Origin: Candidatus Hydrothermarchaeota archaeon
GTDB taxonomy: Archaea > Hydrothermarchaeota > Hydrothermarchaeia > Hydrothermarchaeales > BMS3B
DNA: 46,480 nt
NCBI GenBank assembly: GCA_015521615.1
Contig: WANW01000029.1
Coordinates: 1-46,480, forward strand
Direction: 5' to 3'
Position numbers and translations under genes: made by a program. Every line of letters starts with the position of its first letter. Position 1 is the stretch's first letter. Below the pieces are notes generated by a model. The model saw nothing but the letters and a program-made list of their open reading frames with translations, had not been told where the DNA came from and did no database searches. Below, one piece after another: positions 1 through 8,523 of the stretch.

Positions 1-590
1 CCTAATAAAAATAGCCAATCATTAGGAAATTCATTTCTTATTTTTTTTACAACTTCTTCAAGAAATTTCTCATCTTTAACTTTTACGTATCTGCTACTAT
101 TCTCAATTTTTTTTAGTAAACCTCCTATTCCGATATATTTGAAACCTATATCTTTAAGCTCTATATAACAATCTAAGTACTCTTCTACGCTATTCCCTTG
201 AGCTACACCAACTAAATTAAAATTATAATCTCCAGAATCATACACTTCAATTGCTTCTTTAGCACTTTTTATTGTTGCATCCTTATTCTTTAAAACATCG
301 ATTATAATACCATATTCCACACACATATTTTCGTAAACTTCAAATAATTTTTCATATCCATTAGGTATACATCCATCTTTAGTAAAAACCGCAGAATCTG
401 CCATTTTTATTATATTTTCTCCTTCAAATTCGCGAAATAATCTCTGAAAATTTTTTGATGTATTTGCATGGGCCATAATTCCAACTTTAAATGGCAATTT
501 CGAAATATTACAATATCTTAAAAGTTCAAGTGACTTTGGCCTATCTACTACAAAAAATGGTATTGGATATTTAAGTTCAATCTTTTTCAC
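1..590 (-). CDS. TGT-fold (DpdA-like) guanine transglycosylase, 3'-truncated by window edge
   Basis: Manual translation from GTG at 590 (AGGGG upstream) stays open to base 1: MKKIELKYPIPFFVVDRP...KMADSAVF...YGIIIDVL...LVGVAQGNSVEEYLDCYIELKDIGFKYIGIGGLL...WLFLLG. The DS, xD, QG, GGL and LLG motifs occur in TGT-barrel order. Very AT-rich; not in the ORF track. Confidence 0.7.
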   Translation of the reverse strand, partial: MKKIELKYPIPFFVVDRPKSLELLRYCNISKLPFKVGIMAHANTSKNFQRLFREFEGENIIKMADSAVFTKDGCIPNGYEKLFEVYENMCVEYGIIIDVLKNKDATIKSAKEAIEVYDSGDYNFNLVGVAQGNSVEEYLDCYIELKDIGFKYIGIGGLLKKIENSSRYVKVKDEKFLEEVVKKIRNEFPNDWLFLL

Positions 591-5198: not shown

Positions 5199-5507
5199 TT
5201 ACTGGTACTCCCGCCAGGTGTACCTGCACTTGGTGCAGCGATAGAAACGCGTCTCGGCTTCGTCAGCCTTGCGCGTCTGCAGAAGCCACCACTCTGCCTC
5301 GAGGTTGCCGCACTTGGGGCACTCAGCGCGGGTGGTGGGCAGTGTCCTTACCTCCTCGTCAACGACGACCACGCCTTCCTTCTTCTCCTCCTTGCTCACA
5401 ATTTTGTAGTCGTCCTCATTATCTATACCAGCCTCCGCACCGCAGCGCTGGCATACCAGCTTCTTGTTCTTTGGCAGCATTAAACCTCCGCACTTGTCAC
5501 AGAACAT
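5199..5507 (-). CDS. tfs: Transcription factor S (RpoM/TFIIS homolog)
   Basis: Two Zn ribbons; QTRKADE acidic hairpin. Confidence 0.95.
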   Translation of the reverse strand: MFCDKCGGLMLPKNKKLVCQRCGAEAGIDNEDDYKIVSKEEKKEGVVVVDEEVRTLPTTRAECPKCGNLEAEWWLLQTRKADEAETRFYRCTKCRYTWREYQ

Positions 5508-5928: not shown

Positions 5929-6461
5929 TACCCCACCTCCCTGTAGGCATGGAGCAGTGCGGGCAGCATTCCTATAACAGTGCACGTCTCAAAAGGTATG
6001 CCCTTACCCGAGAGCTCCAGATGATGCTTCGTCATCCCCAGCACCTCCCGCGGCAAGCCGCGCCTTCCCAGGCCCATAACCACGAGAAATGACCTGCCCT
6101 GCCTCGCCTGCCTGGCAAGTGCTCTGGGTGAGAGGAGCTTTTCCCTCGCCGGTTTGGACGTCGCCGCAACGGCCACGCCGAGTTGCGGCGGAAAACCACG
6201 CCCTGGAAAATCGAAGATACCAAATCTTCCCTCCTCTGCAAGAAGTTTGATATAGCGTCCGCCCTCGCCTATGGTGGTGTCTCTAGCAAGAGATTCCACA
6301 ACGCCCGAGAAGCTACCCTCTAAGGGAAAGCCAAAGAGAGCGAGGTTCATCTCAAAGGCATAACACACAGGTGCCGCTCTGGCAATACTCCGCCTGTGGA
6401 TGTCGTGTAACCTCACAGGATCATAGCTGTTGTATAACCCCAGGGTTATTCTTCCTCCCAT
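5928..6461 (-). CDS. DUF531 family protein (SPOUT-like)
   Basis: LGLYNSYD, HRRSIARAAPVCYAF, GLGRRGLP, FETCT; start placed at ATG 6461. Confidence 0.8.
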   Translation of the reverse strand: MGGRITLGLYNSYDPVRLHDIHRRSIARAAPVCYAFEMNLALFGFPLEGSFSGVVESLARDTTIGEGGRYIKLLAEEGRFGIFDFPGRGFPPQLGVAVAATSKPAREKLLSPRALARQARQGRSFLVVMGLGRRGLPREVLGMTKHHLELSGKGIPFETCTVIGMLPALLHAYREVG

Positions 6462-6880
6462 ACCGCATCCCTCGCTCTCGAAAGGAGTGCTGCAAAGGCG
6501 GTCACAGAAGCTTCTCTTAGCTCTTCTTTGCGAGAGAAACGAAGCTCCCTTGCGAGCAGAGAAACGCATTCTTCAAGGGTCAGTGCTTCCTGAAGAAACG
6601 CCTGGGCGAGTAAACTCTCTGCAAAGTCCCCGAGGCTCTGCTTATCCATGCGCGTACCAGCATGCTCACGCAGTCCTGCCTTAACCACTGCCTCTGCAAG
6701 GATTGAGTTTGAAACTTTCTTCCCCACCACTCTACCAAGAACCCTTGAAAGGGCGAGAGAGTAGATTAAGTTGGCTATGCTATCTCCGAGGGGAGAAAGC
6801 TCAGCAAAGCTGGTCTCAAAGCCCAGTGCCGGGTAGCTTTTTTTCTCCTCCCTAACTTTCCAGCTTCTTCTGCAGCTCAT
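6446..6880 (-). CDS. Archaeal ribonuclease III-like protein
   Basis: LGDSIANLIYSLALS and LGDFAESLLA RNase III-type signatures; start codon uncertain. Confidence 0.75.
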   Translation of the reverse strand: MSCRRSWKVREEKKSYPALGFETSFAELSPLGDSIANLIYSLALSRVLGRVVGKKVSNSILAEAVVKAGLREHAGTRMDKQSLGDFAESLLAQAFLQEALTLEECVSLLARELRFSRKEELREASVTAFAALLSRARDAVWEEE

Positions 6881-7337
6881 CAAACTCCTTCGCAATCTCT
6901 TTGAGCACCTGCTTCAGAACAAAGCGAGGAGGCGAGGGAATGCCGTAGTCCAGCTTTTTTGCCTCGCTCACATAGCGCTCCAGTATGCTTTTGGTTATGC
7001 CAGTCTTCTCTGCCAGTTCGTCAAGGTCTGCCTTCAGCAGGGCATTGGCTGTTGTAATCCCTGCACCTGCGAGCTGCTCCTTTCGCTTTGGGCCTATGCC
7101 GGGCACCGCAGTAATCTCAACCTCCTTCTCGCCGCTGCGGGGCACCTCTATCCCTGGCTTAACCCTGAGGTAGACCACAGGCTGGGAGAGGAGAGGATGG
7201 GCTATGCGGTAGGACGCGGCCTCAACCGCCTCGTTATCTGTAAGCGCCTCTCTGAGGAGATTGCAGAAGGTGTGATCCTCGCCTACAAGCTCAAACTCCA
7301 GCTCGGTGTCGTTCTCCCTGATAACCTTTATCTCCAC
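6852..7337 (-). CDS. rpoL: RNA polymerase subunit L (Rpo11) with internal helix-hairpin-helix insertion
   Basis: GEDHTFCNLLR and YRIAHPL signatures; directly after csl4; ~70-aa insert containing VPGIGPK. Confidence 0.9.
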   Translation of the reverse strand: MEIKVIRENDTELEFELVGEDHTFCNLLREALTDNEAVEAASYRIAHPLLSQPVVYLRVKPGIEVPRSGEKEVEITAVPGIGPKRKEQLAGAGITTANALLKADLDELAEKTGITKSILERYVSEAKKLDYGIPSPPRFVLKQVLKEIAKEFDELQKKLES

Positions 7338-7349
7338 TTTGCAACCTCC

Positions 7350-7925
7350 TTATATAACGCCCTTGCCGTACTCAGAGGAGTACTTTCGCGACTCATACCT
7401 GCCGCAGTTCGGGCACACCAGGCGCTTGCCCTCCAGCTTAAGCGCTATGTTGCAGTTGGTGCAGTATGCCTTAATGGCGCCGAGAGGTCGCTCAACTGTG
7501 CTAAGTGCAATTGGCACCCTTCGCGTATTTGTAACCTTCGCTAGGACAACATCCCCGATCTTAATCTCGCGGTCAATGTCCTGAACGTAGGTGCTGCGAA
7601 GCTGAGAGATGTGTATCGTGCCATATACATTGCCCGGGAGCTCTCGGCGGCTTCGCAGGAGGCGGATAAGCTTCACAAGTGCGAACTGCTGCTTTACATC
7701 CACCACCTTGCATACCGCAATATCGCCCACGCGGGGCTCTGGTATGGTGTTTGTCTTCGGCTCAACTTCAATTTTGCGCTCCTTCATGTCTATTTTGAGC
7801 ACACCCGTCAGAGAGGCAAATATCCTGCCATTCTCCTCATAGGTGCCCCTGCCCGGGATGAACTCTTCACTGAACCCCAGCTCCTCGCCGGGTACAACGA
7901 ATTCACCTGCCTCAACCATTTCCAA
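7350..7925 (-). CDS. csl4: Exosome RNA-binding protein Csl4
   Basis: VVPGEELG..EEFIPGRGTY, S1 domain, C-terminal Zn ribbon, ESRKYS. Confidence 0.93.
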   Translation of the reverse strand: MEMVEAGEFVVPGEELGFSEEFIPGRGTYEENGRIFASLTGVLKIDMKERKIEVEPKTNTIPEPRVGDIAVCKVVDVKQQFALVKLIRLLRSRRELPGNVYGTIHISQLRSTYVQDIDREIKIGDVVLAKVTNTRRVPIALSTVERPLGAIKAYCTNCNIALKLEGKRLVCPNCGRYESRKYSSEYGKGVI

Positions 7926-8523
7926 GCCTCCTTATCCGGTATATATCCACATTTATAAACTTCCTCTCCTTCCTGTGAAAATCATAGCTTCTGGGAAGTT
8001 CAAAGCGCTTCTCGACAACCTCTTCCACTCTACCTCCAAGCGCACGCACATAGCGGTGAATAAACTCCCGTGTCTCGCGCTTGTGAATTGAGTAAACCAC
8101 CGGCGCAATCTCCAGCGCCTTCTCAAGAAATGCTCTATCAGCACCTCTAACGTGGACTCCAAAAGGCGGATTCTGAACCACCGTCTCTGCTCTCCCACTT
8201 ATATCTCTGACGTCAGCCAGAATAAACTCTATGTTATCGAGAGCAAATTTTTCGGCATTTTTCTGTGCAATGCTCAGAGCTTCTGCATCACTGTCAACAC
8301 AGACCACCTGCTTCGCCCCAAGAAGTGCTGCGCCTATACCCAGCCTGCCGGTGCCACACCCCAGGTCAAAGACAGTCTTTGCATATATATCTCCCTTCAG
8401 ATGTGCCAGTATTAAAAGCTCAGCTGCAAGCGGTGCTGGTGTGGAGTACTGCTCCAGACTGAGCCTGGGCCTGCGAAATCCCGAACAGCGCTGGAGCATC
8501 ATCTCAAGCTCTTTCTTGTCCAC
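7912..8523 (-). CDS. METTL5-family RNA methyltransferase
   Basis: LEQYSTP, DLGCGTG, NPPFG. Confidence 0.9.
   Translation of the reverse strand: MDKKELEMMLQRCSGFRRPRLSLEQYSTPAPLAAELLILAHLKGDIYAKTVFDLGCGTGRLGIGAALLGAKQVVCVDSDAEALSIAQKNAEKFALDNIEFILADVRDISGRAETVVQNPPFGVHVRGADRAFLEKALEIAPVVYSIHKRETREFIHRYVRALGGRVEEVVEKRFELPRSYDFHRKERKFINVDIYRIRRLGNG

What the first reader, a model, noticed from the sequence alone, without database searches (positions are those of the whole stretch)
6936..7148. RNA polymerase subunit RpoL (Rpo11) with an inserted helix-hairpin-helix domain, a possible archaeal analogue of the bacterial alpha-CTD
Seen: rpoL sits in its normal operon position after csl4 but is 161 aa. 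About 70 extra residues lie between the last beta strand (VYLRVK) and the C-terminal helix (PRFVLKQVLKEI): EITAVPGIGPKRKEQLAGAGITTANALLKADLDELAEKTGITKSILERYVSEAKKL, a tandem HhH pattern like the RadA N-terminal domain. Known: Rpo11 is normally about 90-95 aa, and Rpo3/Rpo11 are homologous to the bacterial alpha N-terminal domain, whose CTD uses an HhH-type fold to contact UP-element DNA and activators. Inference: this lineage may have independently attached a nucleic-acid- or factor-binding module to the RNAP assembly platform. Both flanks are intact and in frame, and there are no intein termini.
Basis: partly seen in the sequence, partly recalled or inferred. Interest (0 to 1): 0.85.

Follow-up and report, generated by a model that had tools for sequence, protein, structure and literature searches.

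The report
RNA polymerase subunit L with HhH insert
The only gene for the small RNA polymerase scaffold subunit Rpo11 in this hydrothermal archaeon carries a conserved extra helix-hairpin-helix domain found throughout its phylum and apparently nowhere else, which may give the polymerase a built-in extra contact for DNA, RNA or a partner protein.

Summary
Window 6852-7337 (-) encodes a 161-aa RpoL/Rpo11. Its core (aa 1-61 and 136-161) is interrupted by a 74-aa insert (aa 62-135, window 6933-7154) containing a Pfam HHH_5 (HhH)2 domain.

- It is the only RpoL in the genome.
- Contigs from other studies have the same structure.
- The insert is under purifying selection as strong as the core.
- A full-length, insert-bearing RpoL was found in 36 of 38 species genomes of the phylum (records titled Hydrothermarchaeota). 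No genome had a short copy.
- Among 1.84 billion representative proteins, only 9 of the 150 best hits combine core and insert, and all sit nearest Hydrothermarchaeota.

Models put the insert on the solvent side. It leaves the Rpo3 interface untouched and emerges next to the Rpo3 C-terminus, which is the spot where the bacterial alpha linker to its CTD leaves.

The domain is of the RadA/Rad51-N-terminal type, not the alpha-CTD family. Its closest paralogue (55% identity) is the C-terminal HhH of a ribosomal eL13-HhH fusion in the same genome.

Function is inferred only. The most likely role is a rigidly held, sequence-independent nucleic-acid contact; a protein docking site is the main rival. 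I found no description in print. This is a new variant of a known kind.

The parts
6852..7337 (-). rpoL (Rpo11) coding sequence, 161 aa plus stop codon; GTG start
7155..7337 (-). N-terminal core, aa 1-61: strands 1-4 and helix 1, including the GEDHTFCN motif
   Evidence: Pfam RNA_pol_L_2 aa 12-61; model; aligned to 4qiw_L at Z 14.0; aa 1-3, 17 and 20-30 lie in the predicted Rpo3 interface
6933..7154 (-). 74-aa insert, aa 62-135: N-side tether (62-73), (HhH)2 domain, C-side tether (129-135, conserved KLDYG)
6954..7118 (-). HHH_5 (HhH)2 domain, aa 74-128; hairpin 1 is PGIGPK (aa 79-84), hairpin 2 is KTGIT (aa 111-115)
   Evidence: Pfam HHH_5 8.5e-11; same coordinates in the genome scan; fold matches to RAD51 paralogue, Rad51 and AF1548 domains at Z 8.7-9.7
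6855..6932 (-). C-terminal dimerisation helix, aa 136-161, equivalent to the last helix of canonical Rpo11 and to H3 of bacterial alpha
   Evidence: model helix 136-160; contacts with the Rpo3 C-terminal helix at aa 138-159; alignment range 1..161 to the 94-aa 4qiw_L
7345..7349 (-). GGAGG ribosome-binding site 7 nt upstream of the GTG, directly after the csl4 stop
   Evidence: read from the sequence
7350..7925 (-). csl4 (exosome RNA-binding subunit), the upstream gene; same order in deep-branching relatives
6446..6895 (-). Downstream gene, Pfam Ribonucleas_3_2 (PF11469). The listed TTG start overlaps the end of rpoL by 44 nt. A homologue follows rpoL in the deep-branching locus L094.

Best explanation
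This is the single, functional Rpo11 (RpoL) subunit of a Hydrothermarchaeota RNA polymerase. An ancestor of the phylum acquired a RadA/Rad51-N-terminal-type (HhH)2 domain (Pfam HHH_5) at the N-terminal cap of the last helix, and the domain has been kept under purifying selection ever since. The core still pairs with Rpo3 through helix 1 and the C-terminal helix (predicted). The insert is held by two short tethers on the solvent-exposed face of the Rpo3/Rpo11 platform, next to the Rpo3 C-terminus (predicted). Inferred function: it acts as a fixed, sequence-independent contact for a nucleic-acid backbone. That could be duplex DNA lying against the back of the enzyme or nascent or structured RNA, bound through the two glycine hairpins and the conserved lysines flanking them (K83, K111, K127/K128). 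It most likely came from the same pool of HHH_5 cassettes that archaea fuse to ribosomal proteins; the nearest relative is the eL13-HhH protein of the same genome. Shown: the architecture, its distribution, the selection on it, the single copy and the fold class. Inferred: the placement on RNAP, any ligand, and any effect on transcription.
For: Architecture.
Sole copy: one PF13656 hit in the own genome, which is 93.7% complete.
Distribution in the phylum: 36 of 38 genomes have an RpoL match starting at aa 1-2 and reaching at least aa 126, in frames of 151-214 aa, and none has a core-only match. The two misses (93% and 86% complete) have no PF13656 hit of any kind.
Outside the phylum: of 80 RpoL loci kept from 224 relatives, 23 frames are >=140 aa. 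All 23 come from records titled Hydrothermarchaeota, Pyrohabitans, Hydrothermarchaeum or an unclassified archaeon. The other 57 are 86-113 aa and come from Bathy-, Woese-, Had-, Nano- and Nezhaarchaeota, Thermoprotei and Methanosarcinales. Of the 150 best among 1.84 billion representatives, 9 have core plus insert, 89 core only and 52 HhH only. The 8 of these that I compared with the loci held (P0039, a partial protein, was not compared) all had Hydrothermarchaeota-group loci as their best matches.
Not an assembly artefact: one 6674-nt contig from another study spans 6400-8000 with 6 substitutions, no indels and no joints. A contig from a third study spans 6866-8000.
Selection: mean pairwise identity is 0.51 for the insert, 0.56 for the N-core and 0.40 for the C-helix. 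Nei-Gojobori dN/dS is 0.05-0.31 for the insert and 0.08-0.40 for the core, over 28 pairs of 8 coding sequences.
Fold: the core matches 4qiw_L at Z 14.0, rmsd 1.4 over 89 aa. The insert matches a RAD51-paralogue N-domain at Z 9.7 (63 aa), AF1548 C-domain at Z 9.3 and Rad51 at Z 8.7. PDB sequence hits are the eL32 HhH N-domain (E 0.0045), Pyrococcus Rad51 (0.011) and UvrC (HhH)2 (0.06).
Interface: the Rpo3+RpoL model scores 0.81, best of 3 controls 0.04. That mark was reached by 58 of 80 solved complexes and 2 of 110 mismatched pairs. The runs agree in 100% of contacts and the partner pLDDT is at least 87. RpoL interface residues are 1-3, 17, 20-30, 134, 138 and 141-159, with none in 31-133. A like complex is solved, so this pass may come from memory.
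Hairpins: GIG in hairpin 1 in 19 of 24 sequences; K111 and K128 are nearly invariant.
Origin: the eL13-HhH paralogue is 55% identical over 60 aa, against <=28% for the other HHH_5 proteins in the genome.
Against: No binding was measured, and no coordinates were available to place the domain on a whole RNAP.

In the window's own genus and its nearest relatives (10 of 24 sequences) the insert has a net charge of -1 to -4. It is +4 to +10 in 11 others. A neutral or acidic HhH domain is a weaker candidate for backbone binding.

The three deepest-branching members (147-149 aa) lack the glycines of hairpin 1 and one has a shortened hairpin 2, yet they keep the domain. The predicted fold is still Rad51-N-like (Z 8.1, rmsd 1.7 over 55 aa). 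Whatever function is conserved across the phylum may therefore not need canonical hairpins.

HhH-type domains of this fold also serve as protein-binding modules: NusA AR2 with alpha-CTD scores Z 7.5. With tethers of only about 12 and 7 residues, the domain cannot reach far from the platform, which lies away from the main DNA channel in solved RNAPs (recalled, not computed here).
Confidence: 0.5

Rival explanations
1. Protein docking site. The exposed HhH domain recruits a transcription factor, regulator, chromatin protein or RNA-processing factor to the assembly platform. This would parallel the way bacterial alpha-CTD binds activators and NusA AR2, and the way the eukaryotic Rpb3/Rpb11 surface binds Mediator.
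For: The fold class includes protein-binding members: NusA AR2 in complex with alpha-CTD Z 7.5, alpha-CTD in complex with Spx Z 6.5, RAD51-paralogue N-domains Z 8.5-9.7. The insert is acidic to neutral in the window's genus. The deep-branching members keep the fold but lose hairpin 1. The conserved C-side tether KLDYG and invariant residues away from the hairpins (L89, G93, L100, Y122, A126) fit a conserved protein surface as well as a structural core. A 2026 review describes alpha-like subunits as hubs for regulatory factors (PMC13374769; abstract, matched passages and the archaeal section read).
Against: No candidate partner was identified. The gene neighbourhood (csl4, an RNase III-like gene, TFS) is the ordinary one. 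Most members keep canonical G-h-G hairpins and the flanking lysines typical of backbone binders. The closest relatives are fusions to ribosomal proteins, where RNA is the likely ligand.
Confidence: 0.25
2. Purely structural role. The insert stabilises Rpo11, the Rpo3/Rpo11 heterodimer or RNAP assembly (for instance at high temperature) and binds no separate ligand.
For: Both tethers are short and conserved. P66 is invariant and KLDYG is conserved within the order. The model is confident throughout (pLDDT 78-97 per block), which suggests a fixed rather than a swinging domain. Archaeal alpha-like subunits are known to have added stabilising modules, such as the Fe-S domain of RpoD (PMC13374769, section read). 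Rpo3 here has that domain, with two CxxCxxC motifs.
Against: In the predicted heterodimer no insert residue from 62 to 133 touches Rpo3 with confidence. All other archaea, hyperthermophiles included, manage with 86-113-aa subunits. Keeping the hairpin motifs in 19-21 of 24 sequences is not needed for a mere brace.
Confidence: 0.17
3. The insert-bearing protein is not the RNAP subunit, either because it is an assembly chimera or because it is a paralogue that acts outside RNAP while a canonical Rpo11 does the job.
For: None found. NCBIfam RpoL equivalog models score below their cut-offs (best 66.4 against 73), but that is expected when the match is split by an insert.
Against: There is one PF13656 hit in the genome. 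No short RpoL appears in any of the 38 phylum genomes. The csl4-rpoL order is conserved in the window and in the three deep-branching loci read. Independent contigs from other studies carry the same architecture. dN/dS is about 0.1. The Rpo3 interface is predicted intact.
Confidence: 0.02

Closest known systems
Canonical archaeal Rpo11/RpoL (e.g. PDB 4qiw_L, 2pa8_L, 1xpp) and eukaryotic Rpb11/AC19
   Same: Same core fold (Z 14.0, rmsd 1.4 over 89 aa to 4qiw_L). Same GEDHT motif, same csl4-rpoL gene order, and the same predicted helix-helix interface with Rpo3.
   Different: 74 extra residues forming an independent (HhH)2 domain between strand 4 and the last helix. Canonical subunits are 86-113 aa. 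NCBIfam equivalog cut-offs are not reached.
Bacterial RNAP alpha subunit C-terminal domain (Pfam PF03118)
   Same: An (HhH)-type helical domain attached to the alpha-like dimerisation module. It leaves the platform at nearly the same place: the RpoL helix runs antiparallel to the Rpo3 C-terminal helix, so the insert's C-side junction (aa 134-138) lies beside the Rpo3 C-terminus. That helix corresponds to alpha H3, after which the alpha linker starts (plus the known alpha architecture as summarised in PMC13374769; matched passages read). General fold similarity is Z 6.5, rmsd 2.7 over 62 aa to 1z3e_B.
   Different: Different sequence family: no PF03118 hit for this protein, and only a sub-threshold 18.1 bits against a cut-off of 23.8 in one deep-branching homologue. 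It is an internal insert with two short tethers, not a C-terminal domain on a flexible linker. There is one copy per enzyme, on the alpha-II-like subunit, rather than two. UP-element or activator contacts are untested.
N-terminal (HhH)2 domain of RadA/Rad51 and RAD51 paralogues (Pfam HHH_5, RAD51D_N)
   Same: Best sequence and fold matches: NCBIfam RadA PRK04301 at 6.9e-06 over aa 71-129; Pyrococcus Rad51 1pzn at E 0.011; 9q25_D Z 9.7 and 3lda_A Z 8.7.
   Different: It sits inside an RNAP subunit rather than at the N-terminus of a recombinase ATPase. Identity to the genome's own RadA N-domain is only 28%.
HHH_5 cassettes fused to archaeal ribosomal proteins: eL13-HhH (own genome, L095:1420-1836, 138 aa) and eL32 with 1-4 HhH domains (PDB 1jj2_X; P0048)
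   Same: Closest paralogue, at 55% identity over 60 aa. Same Pfam family. In a poorly resolved domain tree, RpoL inserts and eL13 HhH domains share an unstarred cluster (SH-aLRT 85) that holds none of the 36 multi-HhH rows.
   Different: Those are terminal fusions to ribosomal proteins. This is an internal insertion in a polymerase subunit.
Rpo13 of Sulfolobales RNAP (recalled; also mentioned in PMC13257274, passage read)
   Same: A lineage-restricted addition to archaeal RNAP. It is reported there to contact double-stranded DNA and to help fix the enzyme at the promoter.
   Different: Rpo13 is a separate small subunit near Rpo5 on the downstream side, with no sequence relation. The case here is a domain inserted into a universal subunit on the platform side.

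Membership tests
Rpo11/RpoL (Rpb11-like alpha-motif subunit) | Match to the family profile above the curated cut-off | tested here: met
   PF13656: 62.2 bits against a cut-off of 27, E 3.8e-17, aa 12-61. The NCBIfam equivalogs stay below their cut-offs (best 66.4 against 73) because the insert splits the match.
Rpo11/RpoL (Rpb11-like alpha-motif subunit) | Core fold: four strands, helix 1 and a C-terminal helix | tested here: met
   Predicted model against 4qiw_L: Z 14.0, rmsd 1.4, 89 aa, spanning model residues 1..161
Rpo11/RpoL (Rpb11-like alpha-motif subunit) | Heterodimer with Rpo3 through helix 1 and the last helix | tested here: met
   In silico only. Score 0.81, best of 3 controls 0.04; that mark was reached by 58 of 80 solved complexes and 2 of 110 mismatched pairs. 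Contacts agree 100% between runs and the partner pLDDT is at least 87. The interface is aa 1-3, 17, 20-30 and 134-159. A like complex is solved, so the pass may come from memory.
Rpo11/RpoL (Rpb11-like alpha-motif subunit) | Single-copy gene in the usual context | tested here: met
   One hit in the own genome; csl4 upstream; the same order in deep-branching loci
Rpo11/RpoL (Rpb11-like alpha-motif subunit) | Physical presence in purified RNAP | not testable with these tools
   Uncultivated lineage; no proteomic data were examined
(HhH)2 domain, Pfam HHH_5 (RadA/Rad51 N-terminal type) | Profile match above the cut-off | tested here: met
   PF14520: 42.6 bits against 27, aa 74-128, profile positions 3-57 of 57
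(HhH)2 domain, Pfam HHH_5 (RadA/Rad51 N-terminal type) | Two helix-hairpin-helix motifs with G-h-G-type hairpins | tested here: met
   PGIGPK and KTGIT in the window protein. Hairpin 1 has GIG in 19 of 24 relatives, GVA in 2, and is lost in 3.
(HhH)2 domain, Pfam HHH_5 (RadA/Rad51 N-terminal type) | Five-helix (HhH)2 fold | tested here: met
   Predicted helices at 83-91, 97-102, 105-112 and 116-127. Matches 9q25_D Z 9.7 over 63 aa, 1y88_A Z 9.3 and 3lda_A Z 8.7.
(HhH)2 domain, Pfam HHH_5 (RadA/Rad51 N-terminal type) | Sequence-independent nucleic-acid binding | not testable with these tools
   Needs EMSA, anisotropy or a structure
Bacterial alpha-CTD (PF03118) | Profile match above the cut-off | tested here: not met
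   No PF03118 hit at E<=0.01 for the window protein. One deep-branching homologue reaches 18.1 bits against a cut-off of 23.8. No alpha-CTD chain appears among PDB sequence hits at E<=1.
Bacterial alpha-CTD (PF03118) | Fold similarity specific to alpha-CTD | tested here: inconclusive
   1z3e_B scores Z 6.5, rmsd 2.7 over 62 aa. That is below the RAD51/AF1548-type matches (Z 8.7-9.7) and within the range of generic helical matches.
Bacterial alpha-CTD (PF03118) | C-terminal domain on a long flexible linker | tested here: not met
   Internal insert with tethers of about 12 and 7 residues, followed by the 26-aa dimerisation helix
Bacterial alpha-CTD (PF03118) | Binding of upstream promoter DNA and activators | not testable with these tools
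Intein | Hint-domain splicing blocks and a size of at least about 130 aa | tested here: not met
   No intein or Hint family in the Pfam list. The insert is 74 aa and folds as HhH.

The most novel reading that the evidence does not exclude
Hydrothermarchaeota have convergently built an archaeal counterpart of the bacterial alpha-CTD. This would be an HhH domain anchored at the same corner of the alpha-like platform, contacting upstream or wrapped DNA, or DNA-bound regulators, and so tuning initiation. It would be a regulatory route unknown for any archaeal or eukaryotic RNAP. A bolder extension is that the same cassette on ribosomal eL13 and on Rpo11 recognises a common ligand, linking the two machines.
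Probability: 0.15. Interest if true: 0.85.

Novelty: new variant of a known kind. Interest (0 to 1): 0.62.

Why it matters
Archaeal RNAP subunit architecture is regarded as very uniform. The known lineage-specific changes concern Rpo8, Rpo13, Rpo6 and the Fe-S domain of Rpo3. A whole folded domain inserted into the universal Rpo11 scaffold subunit, fixed across an entire phylum and under strong purifying selection, is a natural experiment in adding a contact module to the assembly platform. It sits at the corner where bacteria attach their alpha-CTD.

If the domain binds DNA, RNA or a factor, it would show that this platform position has been used more than once in evolution as a regulatory handle. 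It would also give a compact, graftable module for testing platform-tethered contacts in tractable archaea. In addition, it is a clean molecular synapomorphy for recognising Hydrothermarchaeota in metagenomes.

Tried and rejected
- Expression: no listed holder of the stretch is on record as an RNA run, so nothing can be said about transcription. Only DNA contigs were laid.
- Whole-RNAP placement: no tool gave model or PDB coordinates, so the distance from the insert to DNA, RNA, Rpo1 or Rpo2 could not be computed. The statement about the platform lying away from the main channel is recalled.
- Structure paper PMC4657547: not held (after a term-format error).
- Genome-collection scan: it used the single peptide pattern GE[DG]HTFCN, so archaea whose RpoL lacks that motif were not sampled. 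I rely on the word-index-free HMMER search for the claim that the architecture is confined to this group. Only the best 150 of 446 hits were listed. Two-domain proteins should score at the top, but a very divergent insert would be missed.
- HhH-domain tree: 95 rows by 59 columns, with 51 of 89 inner branches open. My script mislabelled 11 RpoL cluster members (P0186-P0196) as stand-alone HhH, so its group statistics are not usable. It shows neither a single origin of the RpoL inserts nor the direction of transfer.
- eL13-HhH outside the phylum: one homologue is named 'Methanomicrobia archaeon' (P0208, 40% identity). MAG labels are coarse, so I do not conclude which lineage had the fusion first.
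- Intein, chimera and second-copy readings: rejected (see rivals).
- Literature: searches 'Hydrothermarchaeota'+'RNA polymerase' (19 papers; 15 listings and abstract starts seen), 'Rpo11'+'helix-hairpin-helix' (1 paper, on Rpo8/Rpo6; passages and outline read), 'RpoL'+'HhH' (2, both irrelevant), 'RNA polymerase subunit L'+'helix-hairpin-helix' (0), 'L13e'+'helix-hairpin-helix'+'archaea' (0), 'RpoL'+'helix-hairpin-helix' (0) and 'Rpb11'+'HhH'+'archaea' (0) found no description of the insert. Subscription journals and supplementary tables were not searchable, and genome papers on Hydrothermarchaeota may list the gene there.
Full report
**What is in the sequence.** The ORF at window 6852-7337 (minus strand) encodes 161 aa from a GTG start. 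A GGAGG lies 7 nt upstream, immediately after the stop codon of csl4. Pfam finds the Rpb11/RpoL dimerisation domain at aa 12-61, covering only profile positions 1-48 of 75 (E 3.8e-17). It also finds a complete HHH_5 domain at aa 74-128 (E 8.5e-11). NCBIfam RpoL equivalogs match aa 1-60 but stay under their cut-offs. The RadA, topoisomerase I C-terminal and HhH-bearing eL32 models hit aa 70-129. Neighbouring genes are a small methyltransferase, csl4, then rpoL, then a PF11469 RNase III-like gene, DUF531 and TFS.

**Structure.** An AlphaFold2 model built on 24 homologues is confident (mean pLDDT 90.4, pTM 0.70).
- It has strands 2-8, 12-18, 38-44 and 54-59, helix 22-34, four short helices between 83 and 127, and a long helix 136-160.
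- In an exhaustive structural comparison, residues 1..161 align to the 94-residue Rpo11 of Thermococcus kodakarensis over 89 residues (4qiw_L, Z 14.0, rmsd 1.4). The insert is looped out in that alignment.
- Residues 72-134 match N-terminal domains of a RAD51 paralogue (9q25_D, Z 9.7, 63 aa), the AF1548 C-terminal domain (Z 9.3) and yeast Rad51 (Z 8.7).
- NusA AR2 (Z 7.5) and alpha-CTD (1z3e_B, Z 6.5, rmsd 2.7 over 62 aa) score lower. Foldseek gives the same picture.
- By sequence against the PDB, the best hits for the insert are the HhH N-domain of Haloarcula eL32 (E 0.0045), Pyrococcus Rad51 (0.011) and UvrC (0.06). No alpha-CTD appears at E<=1.

**Real, single-copy and selected.**
- The window's genome (93.7% complete) has one PF13656 hit, which is this gene.
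- A 6674-nt contig from a different study spans 6400-8000 with six substitutions, no indels and no joints. A contig from a third study spans 6866-8000.
- Across 24 homologues, mean pairwise identity is 0.51 for the insert, 0.56 for the N-terminal core and 0.40 for the C-terminal helix.
- Nei-Gojobori dN/dS over 28 pairs of 8 coding sequences is 0.05-0.31 for the insert and 0.08-0.40 for the core.

**Distribution within the phylum.**
- In the 38 species genomes of the same GTDB phylum, 36 carry an RpoL match that starts at residue 1-2 and runs to at least residue 126, in frames of 151-214 aa. No genome shows a separate core-only match.
- The two genomes without a match (93% and 86% complete) have no PF13656 signal at all, although both have Rpo3. 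The gene there is most likely unassembled.
- Source names and record titles place the group in Hydrothermarchaeota: Ca. Pyrohabitans, Ca. Hydrothermarchaeum profundi, Hydrothermarchaeales and Hydrothermarchaeaceae.

**Distribution outside the phylum.**
- In a motif-seeded scan of one genome per prokaryotic species, 224 stretches encoded RpoL relatives and 80 were kept. Of these, 23 have frames of at least 140 aa. Thirteen of the 23 are titled as Hydrothermarchaeota-type, four as 'Methanobacteriota archaeon' and six as unclassified archaeon.
- The other 57 are 86-113 aa (median 94). They come from Bathyarchaeia, Woesearchaeota, Hadarchaeota, Nanoarchaeota, Nezhaarchaeota, Thermoprotei, Methanosarcinales and others.
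- A HMMER search that read all 1.84 billion representative proteins listed 150 best hits. Nine combine core and insert, 89 are core only (median 92 aa) and 52 are HhH only.
- The eight of those nine that I compared with the loci held (P0039, a partial protein, was left out) all had Hydrothermarchaeota-group loci as their best matches. Two of them (P0037, P0040) reach only 42-44% identity, and their taxon is unknown.

**The deep branches.** Three members from the two most distant families (147-149 aa; L034, L058, L094) keep an insert of 55-58 residues. They lack the glycines of hairpin 1, and one lacks part of hairpin 2. Pfam HHH_5 is weak or absent there. A model of one of them is still confident (pLDDT 92.4). 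Its residues 63-117 still resemble the Rad51 N-domain and AF1548 (Z 8.1, rmsd 1.7-1.8 over 54-55 aa). Its alignment contained canonical members, which may bias the fold. The insertion therefore predates the phylum's radiation, but canonical hairpins are not universally kept.

**Placement on the platform.**
- Rpo3 of this genome is an ordinary 257-aa subunit with a two-cluster ferredoxin-like domain.
- A complex prediction of Rpo3 (25-row alignment) with RpoL (24 rows) scored 0.81. The best of 3 controls scored 0.04. That mark was reached by 58 of 80 solved complexes and 2 of 110 mismatched pairs. The runs agree in 100% of contacts and the partner pLDDT is at least 87. A like complex has been solved, so the pass may reflect memory rather than evidence for this copy.
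- The useful part is the contact list. RpoL contributes residues 1-3, 17, 20-30, 134, 138 and 141-159, and nothing from 31-133.
- The pairings (Rpo3 254 with RpoL 142-149, 250 with 145-152, 243 with 152-156) show antiparallel helices. The C-side junction of the insert therefore lies beside the Rpo3 C-terminus (residues 256-257 are in the interface).
- The RpoL helix aligns with H3 of bacterial alpha, ending at about residue 231-235 of the alpha chains. After that point the alpha linker to the CTD begins, according to the architecture summarised in PMC13374769 (passages read).
- By the pseudo-twofold symmetry of the dimer, the insert emerges at about the position where the alpha-I linker leaves the platform. 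This step is inference from the contact list, not a measured superposition.

**Origin.**
- The genome has nine HHH_5-like stretches.
- The one closest to the insert is the C-terminal domain of a 138-aa protein whose N-terminal half matches ribosomal protein L13e (PF01294, 2.8e-11; HHH_5, 1.7e-11). It is 55% identical over 60 aa. RadA and the other HHH_5 proteins in the genome are 28% identical or less.
- Of 15 relatives of the eL13-HhH protein found in the large protein collection, 14 carry both domains. Three carry an organism in their source name: Ca. Pyrohabitans sp., a 'Euryarchaeota archaeon' MAG and, at 40% identity, a 'Methanomicrobia archaeon' MAG. Most carry no name.
- The strongest HhH-only hits of the RpoL query include a protein with four HHH_5 domains fused to eL32.
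- A domain tree is too poorly resolved to give a direction, and part of it was mislabelled by my script.
- The safe statement is that the insert belongs to a pool of HHH_5 cassettes that archaea repeatedly fuse to nucleic-acid-handling proteins. Its nearest known relative is the eL13 fusion of the same lineage.

**Mechanism.**
- Shown: a folded (HhH)2-type domain, fixed in a universal RNAP subunit, exposed, and selected.
- Inferred as most likely (about 0.5): a sequence-independent nucleic-acid backbone contact. The hairpins and flanking lysines are kept in most members, and the relatives of the domain sit on DNA- or RNA-binding proteins.
- Against this reading: the insert is acidic to neutral in the window's own genus (net -1 to -4), hairpin 1 is lost in the deep branches, and the tethers are short.
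- The main rival (about 0.25) is a docking surface for a factor.
- A purely structural role gets about 0.17.
- Artefact or non-RNAP paralogue gets about 0.02.

The alpha-CTD analogy is right about the fold class and, unexpectedly, about the attachment corner. It is wrong about family membership and about the mode of tethering, and it is untested for function.

**Novelty.** Seven literature searches found no description. Two 2026 papers were also read in part. One is on small archaeal RNAP subunits (PMC13257274; outline and passages). The other is a review of alpha-like subunits (PMC13374769; passages and the full archaeal section). Neither mentions the insert. Public annotation pipelines already tag the two Pfam domains on these proteins, so the architecture is visible in databases but apparently not discussed in print. 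Subscription journals and supplements were not searchable.

Noticed in passing
own genome G000:C96, locus L095:1420-1836 (-): A 138-aa protein combines an N-terminal ribosomal L13e match (PF01294, 2.8e-11) with a C-terminal HHH_5 domain (1.7e-11) that is 55% identical to the RpoL insert. Of 15 relatives found, 14 have both domains. As far as I recall, eL13 is unusual outside the TACK and Asgard lineages, so both its presence here and the fusion deserve a look.
   Followed up: partly
protein P0084 (130 aa; not in the window): An RpoL of unknown origin has a complete RNA_pol_L_2 domain (aa 13-82) followed by a UBA domain (PF19026, 3.6e-07), like the one in the nascent-polypeptide-associated complex. 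It may be another lineage-specific addition to Rpo11 or a fused gene call.
   Followed up: no
proteins P0044-P0055 and P0048: Many archaeal proteins of 200-1170 aa carry 3-7 tandem HHH_5 domains closely related to the insert. One (P0048) has four of them fused to ribosomal protein eL32. In the phylum genomes, frames of 388-440 aa carry domains 44-47% identical to the insert.
   Followed up: partly
window 6852-6895: The listed TTG start of the downstream PF11469 (RNase III-like) gene overlaps the last 44 nt of rpoL. The true start may be further in. The same gene follows rpoL in the deep-branching locus L094 (1922-2317).
   Followed up: no
genome G015 (contigs C52 and C89; also loci L024 and L025): One MAG of the phylum carries two full-length insert-bearing rpoL copies (51% and 47% identical to the query) and two Rpo3 copies. 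This suggests a mixed bin rather than a duplication.
   Followed up: no
window 5199-5507 (-): Transcription factor S (TIGR01384, 5.6e-34) lies about 1.3 kb downstream of rpoL on the same strand, so three transcription or RNA-decay genes (csl4, rpoL, tfs) sit within 3 kb.
   Followed up: no
locus L058 (2826-3269), deep-branching RpoL: The degenerate insert of this homologue gives a sub-threshold hit to the bacterial alpha-CTD profile PF03118 (E 0.0022, 18.1 bits against a cut-off of 23.8). I treat it as cross-talk between HhH families rather than evidence of homology to alpha-CTD.
   Followed up: partly
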